Part shown: positions 9,001 to 12,000 of the stretch, one piece after another | Layout of the letters: each line of letters opens with the position of its first letter | Position numbering within the stretch: position 1 is the stretch's first letter | Virus record (IMG/VR): IMGVR_UViG_2609459864_000006 | Source of the DNA: a virus | Lineage: Duplodnaviria; Heunggongvirae; Uroviricota; Caudoviricetes | Direction: 5' to 3' (one strand) | DNA: 14,764 nucleotides | Made by a program: the position numbers

Positions 9001-12000
9001 CTACGTGTGGTCGTGCGCCGGACACGGATAAGCATCCGGTAACTGATTATCAATCATTGCGGAAACAGTCTCAATATGAAAACACTTCTGAGACTCGCTA
9101 TATAGCAGGACATATAAGTCAGCTGAGGAAGCCATGAAAAAGTTCGAAAACATAACTGTTCTCCATGTTGATGACTTTGATTATACAAACCCGGAACTTC
9201 TCCCGGAGGTTGTAAAGGCAATAGATGTTGCCGATATAGTGATTAGAGAAAAGAGAATTGTCAAAAACAGGCTCGTATGCACTTCAGGAGCAATGACAGA
9301 AACAACCTCACAGCAAGATAATTACGAAGGCATTTGCCTGGAGCCTGATTCATTTGCGGTAAATGTTTATCATTTATTGCATGCAACACAGGTATTACAT
9401 ATGTCCAGTAATCACGAAACGAAAACACTCGGCAGCGAAATTCTGAGTTTTGCATGTGAGTATACAAAAGCTGCTGCCGAAAAAGAATTAGCGCAATAAC
9501 AACAAATATGCCCTGAACGTTTATTGCGGTTTTATCGCCGGGGATTGTTACAACCTTAATCCACAGGAGGCTTTATTGTGACTTTTATAAAGAATATGGC
9601 ATCACACAAGACCGCCTGCCTTATTGCACAATACGGTGAAAATTACATGCATATTGCCTGCTTATTTCTGCGTAAAGCATACGGGAGATAATAATGCATC
9701 AGAAAACAGCAGAACACGAACAAACCAGAGTATTGCTGACCATCAAAAACGGGAAAGTAATATTCATTCGCCATGTTCATGACGATGAATTTGTAGGAAC
9801 TCTTTCAACATTCCTGTTTATTGCAGAAAAGGCAGGATATGACGTTATTGCACCAGCAGATGAAGATGAAGATGAGGAATAAATATCATGCAATACGATG
9901 AATTCCAGGCTGAAGCAACAGCCAATGGTATACGAACTGGCAGTATGACGATTGATTATCACGACGCCATACGTCGTCTGGATGCCGGAGAATTCGATAC
10001 TCCTAATGTGCGAGGTTTACGTATCCTTCAGTGTCTGGCGCAAGCCGACGAAGCAGGATTACTGGGTAAACTTCCGGTTGAGATGAAGGTTGCTCAGTGG
10101 CGATGGTTGTATGTGACGACATTCATCAACGAAGAAGAAGACAAGAACGGCACAATTGATATCCTGAATGAACACGGAACAACTGAACACGCCGTGGTAT
10201 ATAACGGGATGTATGGGTTTATGACGATATATCCCGGCCCCATTCGATTTGCCTCACAACAGTATATTGAATGGAATTTAATTCAAAAATACGGCGAAGC
10301 TGAAGGAATGGGAAGAGCGCTGTTTCTTTATCAGAAAATGCTCACTACTTCCCCTGATAAAGGTTTCATTCTTTCAGATATGGGTCGAGAAGGGCTTGAA
10401 ATCCTTCTGGATGAAATTATTAACGAAATGAATACTCATGGCATGCAATCCGAAACAGATATTAAGTAAAAGGGACCACATGACCGTTATCGAGCATATC
10501 CAGGAAAATCCAGATTGCAGTAGAGAAGATATATCCCTCGCACTTGGAAGAAGCGCAACTTCTATCAGTAATGAATTATCACGGTTATTGTGGAATGGGT
10601 TAATAGTACGAACTGGAGAAAAAAACAAAATGATTCTGTACTGCGTAAACAATCTGCCGTTTGGATACAGCAATCCCCTAAGTGTTATGTTCAACCAGTG
10701 ATAGTGATGTTCCGACAGGAGAGAGCAGAGAAAGGGGAATCAGCATGAAATTTTCCAAATTTTCTGAGTTGGTGAATCGTATTTTGTCCAACAACCACAG
10801 CCATCGTCGCGATATGGATGTAACGATCGTTGTTCATTCGCCTGGCAGCATTGGTTCAACACCCTCAGTTGAAGTTCAGTCAATTCACGCTGGTTTTGAT
10901 TGGGATTCCGGGAAAGTGCTGATTTTCCCAGCACAGCCACTGACCACTCTAACACCAGAACAGATTACTGATATTACTGATAGTGTGCGCAAAGGTCAGT
11001 CCTGGCACGCATATCAGGAATACAAGAAGCATAAAGAGCAGTTGGAAAAATTATCGATTGAACTTGATGCCGCAAAACAGCGCATTGCAGAGCTGGAGGG
11101 TAATTTCACGGCGCTGGCAGCGGAGAATGCGGGGCTAAAGGCGATATGTGATGACCGTCGCAGGTTCATCATGAATGGGGTGCAGATGGGTTATATCAAG
11201 GTGCCAGCAGCGGAAACAGATCCAGACCTTGAGACAATTCGCATTGCTATATCACCACAAAAGCCCATTCCAGCCACCGATGCTTTCCTGGCTGAAGTAC
11301 GGGCGCAGGGCGTGGAGATGTTTGCGGAGTGTGCATACACGCTTGAACATCATGATCACGCAGTAGCCTTCGCCGCTGAGCTTCGCAAAGGAGGCAACCA
11401 GTGAGCGAAATTAATTACCAGGCACTGCGTGAGGTGGCGGAACGTGCAATTCCAGCAATGGAACGCCTGTTAATGTTGCCAGCTGATGATGACTTGTTAA
11501 GTGAACAGGAACTTAAAGATTACGGTGTGGATATTGATGCGCTCAACGCCTTCAAATTTCTGACCGGACCAGAAACCGTGCTGGCACTGCTGGATGAACG
11601 GGAAAGAAACCTGCAATACATCAAAAGCCGCGATCAGGAGAACGAGGATATTGCGCTAACGGTAGGGAAGCTGCGCGTTGAGCTTGAAGCAGAAAAACAG
11701 CGGGCAAAAGTTCTATTTATGGAAAATGCTCGGCTTAAGTCAGGCATAGCCGGTCTGATACACCTCGGTATTCGATATGCAGATGTTGAGGTCATGAAAA
11801 TTGCTGGAGATGCCCAGCTTTCTACCCATGCACTGACAGCATCATAAACAGCATTGCAACAGGCATTCGCATCAAAGGAGAGTGATATGGCAACTTTGAC
11901 AAAAAAAGAACAAGCATGGTTGAGCGAATTACAGGACGTTCTTGATCGCTGTCCATCACCGAAAAAAATTGGTTTTTACACCATTGGCGATAAAAGCATT

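What the first reader, a model, noticed from the sequence alone, without database searches (positions are those of the whole stretch)
9578..10701. Early-operon cluster: mini-ORF, poly-acidic 62-aa protein, 193-aa protein and a winged-helix regulator
Four consecutive ORFs separated by 2-11 nt: a 37-aa ORF with AGGAGG RBS, a 62-aa protein with a poly-acidic tail (ADEDEDEE), a 193-aa protein, and a 73-aa winged-helix-like protein. Early-left operons of temperate phages commonly carry host-takeover and anti-defence factors, and a strongly acidic small protein invites the hypothesis of a DNA mimic or anti-restriction factor. The 193-aa protein has a G-x-G-R-A-L stretch (EGMGRALFLYQK) faintly reminiscent of an acyl-CoA-binding loop, which I regard as weak evidence.
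Basis: inference. Interest (0 to 1): 0.45.

Follow-up and report, generated by a model that had tools for sequence, protein, structure and literature searches.

The report
Conserved early-operon genes, function unknown
The four tightly packed genes are real, conserved genes of the early-left operon of a common E. coli prophage, but nothing supports the proposed DNA-mimic or acyl-CoA readings; the most notable result is that the 37-codon mini-gene belongs to a widespread micro-protein family that RefSeq leaves unannotated.

Summary
Observation confirmed. Four same-strand ORFs lie at 9578-9691, 9694-9882, 9888-10469 and 10480-10701, with gaps of 2, 5 and 10 nt, and all are under purifying selection (dN/dS 0.07-0.27).

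They sit about 1.4 kb into the pL operon of a phiP27/Stx-phage-like prophage at yecE. The 62-aa and 193-aa genes are phiP27 L07 and L06 (PHROG 340 and 1515, both unknown function).

- **Mobile unit:** a leader hairpin, the micro-ORF, L07 and L06 move together. The MarR-like winged-helix gene assorts independently and is truncated here by a deletion.
- **Micro-ORF:** it encodes a conserved basic micro-protein (MTFIKDK..AYKTA.L...LRKAYGR). I found at least 116 IMG/VR contigs and 58 variants. It is absent from Pfam and PHROGs and unannotated in the RefSeq records inspected. Its stop codon lies in the next gene's ribosome-binding site.
- **Acidic tail:** a disordered (ED)n repeat of variable length that overlaps L06's Shine-Dalgarno sequence and is missing in sister lineages. 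This argues against a DNA mimic.
- **GMGRAL motif:** not conserved, and helical in the model.
- **L06:** a confident model with no structural or sequence relative.

Function remains unknown. Anti-defence is neither supported nor excluded. Modest interest.

The parts
9527..9540 (+). Small G+C hairpin (CGGU-UUUAUC-GCCG) in the leader about 37 nt before the micro-ORF start. It is conserved with compensatory changes in phages that have an intergenic leader.
   Evidence: RNAalifold recovers 4 pairs, all with compensatory changes. 97.9% of cells are paired and 0 of 500 shuffles reach the covariation score. Further stem variants occur at the same distance in IMG/VR loci.
9566..9571 (+). Shine-Dalgarno AGGAGG of the micro-ORF.
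   Evidence: Read directly from the sequence.
9578..9691 (+). Micro-ORF of 37 aa with a GTG start (ATG in relatives). It encodes a basic (pI 9.5) micro-protein of the family MTFIKDK.AYKTA.L..G.Y..IA.LYLRKAYGR. Its last codons, ACGGGAGATAA, carry the Shine-Dalgarno (GGGAG) of the next gene.
   Evidence: There is no Pfam or PHROG family.
9694..9882 (+). 62-aa protein, equal to phiP27 L07 and PHROG 340. The model shows a beta-hairpin (12-28), a helix (37-46) and a disordered acidic tail.
9859..9879 (+). (GAT GAA)n-type repeat encoding the D/E tail. It is length-polymorphic among strains and contains GAGGA (9874-9878), the Shine-Dalgarno for the 193-aa gene 9 nt upstream of its ATG.
9888..10469 (+). 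193-aa acidic (pI 4.6) cytoplasmic protein, equal to phiP27 L06 and PHROG 1515. The alpha/beta model is confident, but the protein has no known fold or family relative.
10480..10701 (+). 73-aa MarR-like winged-helix protein. It assorts independently of the three genes upstream and is shortened at its C-terminus by a deletion of about 260 bp.
10698..10748 (+). Remnant encoding the last 16 residues (VIVMFRQERAEKGESA) of a DUF4752 gene lost in the same deletion. Its stop overlaps the ATG (10745) of the following Ea22-like gene.
8052..8137 (+). OL-type operator repeats (GATAC/GTATC half-sites) and a promoter-like site (8082-8110) just after cI. This is the inferred pL that would drive the operon containing the finding.

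Best explanation
**Shown**
- The finding is a stretch of the early-left (pL) operon of a phiP27/Stx-phage-like lambdoid prophage integrated at yecE.
- It consists of two independently assorting pieces: a three-gene mobile module (leader hairpin, 37-aa micro-protein, 62-aa L07, 193-aa L06), and a separate MarR-like winged-helix gene that is truncated in this window by a deletion.
- All four genes are under purifying selection.
- The micro-ORF stop codon lies inside the Shine-Dalgarno of L07, 2 nt before its ATG. The last codons of L07, the acidic tail, contain the Shine-Dalgarno of L06.

**Inferred**
- The block is silent in the lysogen and is transcribed from pL after the LexA-like cI repressor is inactivated.
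- Ribosomes load at the strong AGGAGG site, translate the micro-ORF, and are handed on by termination-reinitiation to L07 and then L06, so the three products are made together.
- The D/E tail is mainly a by-product of a purine-rich, slippage-prone ribosome-binding region, not a DNA-mimicking surface.

**Best guess at function**
- The micro-protein, L07 (a small beta-hairpin/helix protein) and L06 (a new alpha/beta protein) act by binding host or phage proteins early after induction. They would be analogues in role, not in sequence, of lambda's small pL proteins such as cIII, Kil, Ral and Gam.
- The winged-helix protein is a small DNA-binding regulator.
- Which target they hit, including a host defence system, is unknown.
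For: **Context**
- cI with an S24 peptidase domain, operators at OR and OL, and xis/int downstream.
- Gene identity with phiP27 L07 and L06.

**Coding status and selection**
-.

**Module boundaries**
- Against phiP27, the upstream gene L08 has dS 0.10, but the micro-ORF, L07 and L06 have dS above 1.2.
- Against Stx1 phages, the three genes and the winged-helix gene have dS 0.05-0.2, while the upstream gene differs.
- The winged-helix gene is absent after L06 in phiP27, ASU11 and Stx2_12E129.
- Some E. coli genomes carry only the leader plus micro-ORF (query 1-180) at 88-98% identity. In the one genome inspected it is joined to other cargo.

**Coupling signals**
- Read from the sequence and conserved in 15 phages.

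**Micro-protein family**
- 116 of 120 pattern hits in IMG/VR are intact 30-42 aa ORFs, giving 58 distinct peptides.

**Acidic tail**
-.

**Lack of known relatives**
- No Pfam, NCBIfam, PADLOC or PDB relatives for the micro-protein, L07 or L06.
Against: - No expression data, promoter mapping or protein detection were available. pL is inferred from the operator repeats only.
- A convergent minus-strand ORF (8727-8954) with a hairpin lies between pL and the block, so a separate promoter nearer the block cannot be excluded. A promoter-like site at 9293-9322 scored 10 of 12.
- Translational coupling is inferred from spacing, not measured. The RNA fold of 9520-9720 is no more stable than shuffled sequences (z = -0.65).
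- The functional guess, protein binders acting on host or phage targets, rests on analogy and on the absence of enzyme-like hits.
- L06 has several invariant polar residues (D37, R72, N87, R120, E128, Y148) that would also fit an enzyme.
Confidence: 0.6

Rival explanations
1. Anti-defence module. The acidic 62-aa protein, perhaps together with L06, inhibits restriction-modification or another host defence, for example as a DNA mimic.
For: - The block lies in an early operon of temperate phages.
- The gene content downstream of the micro-ORF is variable, as expected for accessory cargo.
- L07 (net -8) and L06 (net -14) are acidic in this window.
- L06 relatives also occur in a PICI/P4-like element.
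Against: - Acidity is not conserved in the L07 family. The phiP27 clade is neutral (net 0 to +1), and the tail is a disordered, length-variable repeat.
- No similarity to any Pfam, PHROG or NCBIfam anti-restriction family.
- The genes are fairly conserved (dN/dS about 0.2), with no sign of arms-race evolution.
Confidence: 0.15
2. Toxin-antitoxin or abortive-infection pair, with L07 as a small acidic antitoxin and L06 as the toxin.
For: - A small acidic gene lies immediately upstream of a larger gene, with a 5-nt gap.
- In related operons a neighbouring 72-aa gene is named 'ParE family toxin-like' by PGAP.
Against: - L06 occurs without L07 (loci L010 and L013), and L07 occurs without L06 (Fels-1).
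- Among 85 IMG/VR loci, 29 have L07 only, 10 have L06 only and 20 have both.
- L06 is acidic, has no toxin-fold match and no PADLOC hit.
- The pair sits in an operon inferred to be repressed in the lysogen.
Confidence: 0.05
3. The 37-codon ORF is only a regulatory leader (an upstream ORF that loads ribosomes for the next gene), and its peptide has no function of its own.
For: - The stop codon is embedded in the next gene's Shine-Dalgarno, with the ATG 1-5 nt later, in all 15 phages examined.
- The 3' end, AAAGCATACGGGAGATAA, is conserved at the nucleotide level.
- The ORF is always first in a string of tightly packed genes.
Against: - Conservation is at the amino-acid level along the whole peptide, with many synonymous changes. 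Against phiP27, pS is 0.71 and pN 0.15.
- 58 variants keep the same N- and C-terminal motifs and the same length of 32-38 aa.
- A pure ribosome-loading ORF would not need this.
Confidence: 0.2
4. L06 is an enzyme of a new fold rather than a binding protein.
For: Polar residues are invariant or nearly invariant across a family that diverges to 20-40% identity: D37, W71/R72/W73, N87-G88, R120, E128, Y148, G166-R167, and a C-terminal His in most members.
Against: - No match to any catalytic family or fold.
- The conserved C-terminal PxxPVxH is replaced in this window's protein (SETDIK), yet that variant is common (422-member cluster).
Confidence: 0.15

Closest known systems
Phage phiP27 genes L07 and L06 (AJ298298) and their copies in Stx1a/Stx2a-converting phages and E. 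coli phage PhiR49_2; PHROG 340 and PHROG 1515
   Same: - The genes are the same and in the same order: 53% (L07) and 65% (L06) identity to phiP27, 91-95% to Stx phages, and over 96% to PhiR49_2.
- They occupy the same position between cI and xis/int.
   Different: - All are annotated only as hypothetical, so nothing functional can be transferred.
- The phiP27 and ASU11 L07 proteins lack the acidic tail.
- The micro-ORF is not annotated in phiP27, ASU11 or RefSeq E. coli genomes.
Small proteins of the lambda pL operon (cIII, Kil, Ral, Gam, Ea10, orf60a/61/63)
   Same: - They have the same operon position and the same inferred expression logic: repressed by cI and made early after induction.
- They are small, tightly packed, partly overlapping genes that act by binding host proteins.
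   Different: - There is no significant sequence similarity. The best match is L07 against orf60a, 39% over 23 aa, E 0.008 in a 13-protein database.
- The analogy is of role only and is untested.
DNA-mimic anti-restriction proteins (T7 Ocr, ArdA)
   Same: The window's L07 copy has a low pI and a run of Asp/Glu residues.
   Different: - By established knowledge, Ocr and ArdA display acidic residues on a folded, DNA-shaped dimer.
- Here the acidity is concentrated in an 8-residue low-confidence tail that varies in length and is absent in relatives.
- There is no sequence or fold match.
MarR-family / winged-helix regulators (Pfam MarR_2, PHROG 1687)
   Same: The helix-turn-helix plus wing region matches, and database sources name the protein a MarR family regulator.
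   Different: - At 73 aa it holds only the winged-helix core, without the N- and C-terminal dimerisation helices of canonical MarR proteins of about 140 aa.
- The Pfam score of 23.1 is below the gathering score of 27.
- This copy is further shortened by a deletion.
lambda nutL boxB hairpin
   Same: A short G+C stem with a 3-8 nt loop lies in the pL transcript upstream of the first gene of a gene string, and its stem co-varies.
   Different: - No boxA-like sequence is adjacent and no N-like arginine-rich protein was identified.
- The loop varies in sequence and length.
- The hairpin is missing where the micro-ORF overlaps the preceding HTH gene (52 of 88 distinct upstream sequences).
- There is no Rfam hit.

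Membership tests
PHROG 340 / PHROG 1515 / PHROG 1687 (phage protein families) | Significant full-length match to the family profile. | tested here: met
   E-values of 3.6e-23 (62 aa), 8.6e-89 (193 aa) and 3.7e-20 (winged-helix protein). The first two families have no known function.
MarR family (Pfam MarR_2/MarR) | Score above Pfam's gathering threshold. | tested here: not met
   MarR_2 scores 23.1 bits against a cut-off of 27, and MarR scores 15 against 24.6. The match is to a generic winged helix only.
MarR family (Pfam MarR_2/MarR) | Full-length architecture of about 140 aa with dimerisation helices flanking the winged helix. | tested here: not met
   The protein is 73 aa here and 82-84 aa in undeleted relatives.
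DNA-mimic anti-restriction proteins (Ocr, ArdA and similar) | Sequence or fold relationship to a known mimic. | tested here: not met
DNA-mimic anti-restriction proteins (Ocr, ArdA and similar) | A strongly acidic surface conserved across the family. | tested here: not met
   Net charge runs from +1 to -9 with a median of -4. The closest outgroup clade is neutral, and the tail is a variable (ED)n repeat.
DNA-mimic anti-restriction proteins (Ocr, ArdA and similar) | Binding and inhibition of a DNA-binding enzyme. | not testable with these tools
   This needs biochemistry or plating assays.
Acyl-CoA-binding / GNAT-type Q/R-x-x-G-x-G/A loop | The motif is conserved in homologues and lies in a beta-alpha loop. 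| tested here: not met
   EGMGRAL varies in relatives (DGPERAL, AGLLLAV, NPHQKAL) and lies in helix 137-150 of the model. There is no acetyltransferase hit.
Type II toxin-antitoxin pair | Obligate co-occurrence of the two genes. | tested here: not met
   Each gene occurs without the other.
Type II toxin-antitoxin pair | The toxin belongs to a known toxin fold, and the antitoxin has a DNA-binding domain. | tested here: not met
lambda-type nut site (boxA + boxB) | A conserved hairpin in the early transcript. | tested here: met
   A 4-bp stem with all pairs showing compensatory changes.
lambda-type nut site (boxA + boxB) | An adjacent boxA (CGCTCTTTA-like) and a cognate N protein. | tested here: inconclusive
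   By inspection of the alignment, no boxA-like sequence lies next to the hairpin. A CGCTCTTAA does occur about 840 nt upstream at 8689-8697. No N-like protein was recognised.
   blastp against 13 lambda pL-operon proteins gave no hit better than E 0.008 over 23 aa.

The most novel reading that the evidence does not exclude
The conserved micro-protein, with its leader hairpin where present, is a previously unrecognised entry element of the early-left operon of a large group of temperate enterobacterial phages (Hendrixvirinae-like and phiP27/Stx-like). It would act either as a new small effector comparable to cIII or Kil, or as a coupling and antitermination device that controls expression of exchangeable downstream cargo. 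The cargo here (L07 plus L06, a protein with no known fold) would be a new host-takeover or counter-defence module.
Probability: 0.25. Interest if true: 0.6.

Novelty: new member of a known kind. Interest (0 to 1): 0.35.

Why it matters
- **Prevalence.** The module is present in about 5% of complete E. coli genomes (266 of 5426), including Stx-converting phages of pathogenic serotypes, yet every gene in it is of unknown function.
- **Annotation gaps.** Pipelines miss the 37-aa gene in every RefSeq record inspected, and the winged-helix gene in at least one.
- **Experimental handles.** If the micro-protein or L06 turns out to control induction, host takeover or defence evasion, that would bear on Stx-phage biology. 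L06 would also add a new fold, and the micro-protein a new family. Both are concrete, cheap targets for experiments.
- **What does not hold.** As it stands, the specific DNA-mimic and acyl-CoA hypotheses should not be carried forward.

Tried and rejected
2. **Sequence and profile searches.** Searches against PDB, Pfam, NCBIfam and PADLOC for all proteins, and for 47 L06 relatives and 42 L07 relatives, gave nothing meaningful.
3. **Anti-repressor lead for L07.** L07 weakly matches the C-terminal parts of two 'anti-repressor' PHROGs (E 2e-6 and 2e-4). I could not confirm this. L07 is unrelated to the Ant/ORF6N proteins encoded nearby in related phages, and no fused forms appeared among 65 IMG/VR homologues.
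4. **UniRef label 'DUF905'.** One L07 relative carries this label, but Pfam scans do not support it.
5. **Is L08 the '120-aa' gene?** I tested whether the upstream 121-aa gene (L08) is the counterpart of the 120-aa gene in related operons. An early MAFFT alignment (A5) suggested so, but hhalign gives a probability of 0.2%, so I rejected it.
6. **Locus retrieval.** The search for related loci with the L06 alignments failed for lack of a conserved stretch. I used the look-up of encoding contigs and a DNA pattern scan instead.
7. **RNA tests.** Rfam has no family in 9400-10900. The RNA fold of 9520-9720 is not unusually stable.
8. **Literature.** Searches for phiP27 L06/L07, the PHROG identifiers, PhiR49 and related terms found nothing on these genes.
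9. **Universality of the hairpin.** The leader hairpin is not universal to the micro-ORF. 52 of 88 distinct upstream sequences lack it, apparently those where the micro-ORF overlaps the preceding HTH gene, as it does in ENT39118, CharmingMan and AsXd-1.
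Full report
**Observation**

The window carries four consecutive plus-strand ORFs exactly as described.
- A 37-aa ORF runs from GTG 9578 to 9691 and is preceded by AGGAGG at 9566-9571.
- A 62-aa ORF (9694-9882) ends in ADEDEDEE.
- A 193-aa ORF spans 9888-10469.
- A 73-aa ORF runs from ATG 10480 to 10701.
- The gaps between them are 2, 5 and 10 nt.

All four are real genes rather than chance ORFs.
- Each recurs in other phages and prophages.
- Pairwise dN/dS against Stx1_14040, phiP27 and ASU11 is 0.07-0.27.
- For the mini-ORF against phiP27, the 30 nucleotide differences fall 10/3/17 on codon positions 1/2/3, and both other frames contain stops.

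**Context**

The window is a lambdoid prophage next to a disrupted yecE (DUF72) gene in related genomes.
- A LexA-like cI with an S24 peptidase domain lies at 7307-8038, and cro is divergent from it. Excisionase lies at 13159-13395 and integrase starts at 13451.
- Operator-like repeats with GATAC/GTATC half-sites occur between cro and cI (7288-7360) and again directly after cI (8052-8137), where a promoter-like site also lies.
- I therefore place pL at about 8080-8140, which puts the finding about 1.4 kb into the early-left operon. This placement is inferred, not shown.
- The 62-aa and 193-aa genes are phage phiP27 genes L07 and L06, and the upstream 121-aa gene is L08. All three are 'unknown' in that record.
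- The same block occurs at about 92% identity in many Stx1a- and Stx2a-converting phages and at 99.7% in E. coli phage PhiR49_2.
- The leader-to-L06 stretch (9513-10469) is found in 266 of 5426 complete E. coli genomes, always on the chromosome.

**Modularity**

Divergence changes abruptly at the leader of the mini-ORF.
- Against phiP27, L08 has dS 0.10, but the mini-ORF, L07 and L06 have dS above 1.2.
- Against Stx1_14040, those three genes and the winged-helix gene have dS 0.05-0.2, while the upstream gene is unrelated.
- In phiP27, ASU11 and Stx2_12E129, L06 is not followed by the winged-helix gene.
- Some E. coli genomes match only the first ~180 nt of the query, which is the leader plus mini-ORF. 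In the one I inspected it is joined to different downstream genes.

So the unit that moves is leader + mini-ORF + L07 + L06. The winged-helix gene is an independent neighbour.

In this window the winged-helix gene is also shortened. Relatives have an 82-96 aa ORF followed by a DUF4752 gene. Here a deletion of about 260 bp between two short similar stretches (VMFNQ / VMFRQ) removed DUF4752. It left only the last 16 codons of that gene, at 10698-10745.

**The mini-ORF**

This is the most informative part of the finding.
- tblastn finds the ORF, mostly unannotated, in Fels-1, phi467, Cronobacter phage ENT39118, Aeromonas phage AsXd-1, several Klebsiella phages and several newly isolated E. coli phages.
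- Fifteen phage copies give a consensus of MTFIKDK.AYKTA.L..G.Y..IA.LYLRKAYGR at 32-38 aa.
Of these, 116 hold an intact in-frame ORF of 30-42 aa ending KAYGx, with 58 distinct peptides.
- The peptide is basic (pI 9.5) and not hydrophobic enough for a membrane helix.
- It matches no Pfam or PHROG family.
- It exists in protein databases only as a 37-aa 'hypothetical protein' seen on more than 1000 contigs. RefSeq annotation omits it in all E. coli records inspected.
- In every phage examined its stop codon lies in or next to a GGGAG-type Shine-Dalgarno, with the next ATG 1-5 nt later. It always opens a string of tightly packed genes. This implies translational coupling.
- Conservation along the whole peptide, with saturated synonymous change, argues that the peptide itself is functional rather than a mere ribosome-loading ORF.

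**Leader hairpin**

- About 37 nt upstream of the mini-ORF start is a 4-bp G+C hairpin (9527-9540).
- In 12 phages with an intergenic leader, all four pairs show compensatory changes, 97.9% of cells pair, and 0 of 500 column shuffles reach the covariation score.
- Further stem variants at the same distance occur in IMG/VR.
- The hairpin is absent from 52 of 88 distinct upstream sequences. These are apparently the cases where the mini-ORF overlaps the preceding DicA-like HTH gene, as in ENT39118, CharmingMan and AsXd-1.
- Its role is open: an RNA processing, stability or nut-like element, or a conserved recombination boundary.
- Rfam has no match, and I found no adjacent boxA.

**The 62-aa protein (L07)**

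- With 39 homologues, AlphaFold gives pLDDT 83. The model has a beta-hairpin (12-28), a helix (37-46) and a low-confidence tail.
- A profile search found 553 relatives in Escherichia, Klebsiella, Salmonella and Raoultella, all 'hypothetical'.
- The acidic tail is not a family feature. phiP27-type proteins end PPAKEQTL and are neutral, and family net charge ranges from +1 to -9.
- Within the window's own clade the tail is AD(ED)1-4EE, giving 60, 62, 64, 66 and 68-aa forms. The cause is a hexanucleotide indel, visible in the DNA alignment.
- The tail codons contain GAGGA (9874-9878), 9 nt before the L06 ATG. In phiP27 the equivalent codons contain AAGGAG.
- The simplest reading is a slippage-prone, purine-rich ribosome-binding region that happens to be translated. 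A DNA mimic is not supported.

**The 193-aa protein (L06)**

- The word-indexed search found only Escherichia relatives. An exhaustive profile search found 101 clusters at E below 1e-3, mostly 190-220 aa. None carries a Pfam domain.
- Relatives occur in Klebsiella, Aeromonas and other phages, in small non-mobilizable Klebsiella and Enterobacter replicons of about 20-42 kb listed as plasmids, in a prophage next to an ORF6N antirepressor, and in a PICI/P4-like element between alpA and a primase.
- The AlphaFold model is confident (pLDDT 81.7, pTM 0.80). It is a mixed alpha/beta protein built of beta-hairpin or sheet plus helix units.
- Several polar residues are invariant or nearly so: D37, W71-R72-W73, N87-G88, R120, E128, Y148 and G166. 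An enzymatic role therefore cannot be excluded.
- The C-terminal 80 or so residues show weak similarity to a 120-aa protein family encoded in the same operon of related phages. hmmsearch gives E of about 1e-5 in 39 loci, and hhalign gives E 1.6e-4 at 50% probability.

**Association of the three genes**

I examined 85 IMG/VR contigs chosen only for the mini-ORF and holding at least 3 kb downstream.
- 49 have an L07-like gene and 30 an L06-like gene within 3 kb.
- 20 have both and 26 have neither.
- 11 have the compact window-type arrangement.

The genes are therefore frequent companions but not an obligate pair. This argues against a toxin-antitoxin reading.

**The winged-helix protein**

- PHROG 1687 ('MarR family') matches at E 4e-20.
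- Several Pfam and NCBIfam winged-helix models match below their thresholds.
- Database sources name it a MarR family regulator.
- It has only the winged-helix core.

**Verdict**

- The general setting (early-left operon) and the winged-helix call are right.
- The DNA-mimic and acyl-CoA ideas fail the tests that could be run.
- Anti-defence activity is neither supported nor excluded.
- My best explanation is a translationally coupled, induction-expressed accessory module whose small products act by binding host or phage proteins. The module structure and coupling signals are shown. The expression timing and the mode of action are inferred.
- The genes themselves are already in databases as hypotheticals.
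- What is new here is the recognition of the micro-protein family and its leader hairpin, the module boundaries, the explanation of the acidic tail, and the lack of any known fold for L06.

Noticed in passing
window 5985-6173 (- strand): Rfam finds a C4 antisense RNA (5985-6072, 83 bits) and an isrK Hfq-binding RNA (6097-6173, 59 bits) inside the Ash-family ORF. This is the kind of RNA-controlled antirepressor or immunity region known from P1/P7 c4-ant and from Gifsy-1 isrK.
   Followed up: no
window 5667-6230 (- strand): The 187-aa ORF has an Ash-family N-terminus and a DUF968 C-terminal fragment. In the related genome L001, ash and DUF968 are about 5 kb apart, with Rha, replication-initiator and helicase genes between them. 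This window appears to have lost its replication module, so the prophage is probably defective.
   Followed up: partly
window 2656-3168 (- strand): Three tRNA genes lie at 2923-2999 (Arg-tct), 3013-3089 (Arg-tcg) and 3097-3168 (Met-cat). A STnc100 sRNA lies at 2656-2846 (139 bits). This is the tRNA cluster typical of the late-regulatory region of Stx-type phages.
   Followed up: partly
window 580-2433 (-) and 3934-5076 (+): The window also holds a DUF1737 + SASA (sialate O-acetylesterase, NanS-p-like) + DUF6645 protein and a complete Gram-negative porin gene (Porin_1, E 4e-153). Both are typical lambdoid or Stx-prophage cargo genes.
   Followed up: no
window 8549-8954: A plus-strand 82-aa ORF (PHROG 23054) and a convergent minus-strand 75-aa ORF (PHROG 20080, = phiP27 L09) overlap by about 70 nt. 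A 14-bp perfect-loop hairpin lies at 8685-8712 and contains a boxA-like CGCTCTTAA (8689-8697). It scores as a terminator for the minus-strand gene. This antisense unit lies between the inferred pL and the finding.
   Followed up: no
window 8142-8558: The DicA-like HTH protein just after the OL operators covers only positions 1-135 of the 167-position PHROG 4739 profile. Its counterpart in the related genome L001 is 167 aa. The region between it and L07 differs by about 360 bp from that genome, which suggests a rearrangement.
   Followed up: partly
L001 10081-10329 (E. coli JKHS016, NZ_CP147059): RefSeq/PGAP leaves the intact winged-helix gene unannotated in this genome. It omits the 37-aa micro-ORF in every RefSeq record inspected.
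   Followed up: yes
L007, L023 and other Klebsiella phage records (e.g. MK416014 3710-4288): L06 homologues in several Klebsiella phage records are annotated '2-polyprenylphenol hydrolase / flavodoxin oxidoreductase'. No Pfam, NCBIfam or fold result supports this label, so it looks like a propagated mis-annotation.
   Followed up: partly
L006 2549-2908, L009 2618-2977, L144 2683-3042 and IMG/VR loci: A conserved 120-aa protein family (YRRRI..AAL.R..RKTG...) follows the micro-ORF in many related phages. It shows weak similarity to the C-terminal 80 residues of L06 (hmmsearch E of about 1e-5 in 39 loci; hhalign E 1.6e-4, probability 50%). It is not related to the window's L08.
   Followed up: partly
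L144 3229-3447 (E. coli ATCC 43886): In the longer version of this operon, the 72-aa gene after the L07-like gene is named 'ParE family toxin-like protein' by PGAP, and an SPFH-domain protein follows. Neither gene is present in the window.
   Followed up: no
L018 (phage EKP1, OM284015): A phage recorded as infecting Elizabethkingia carries the micro-ORF (64% identity), an L06 homologue (43%) and the same operon layout as enterobacterial phages. Its host assignment may deserve a second look.
   Followed up: no
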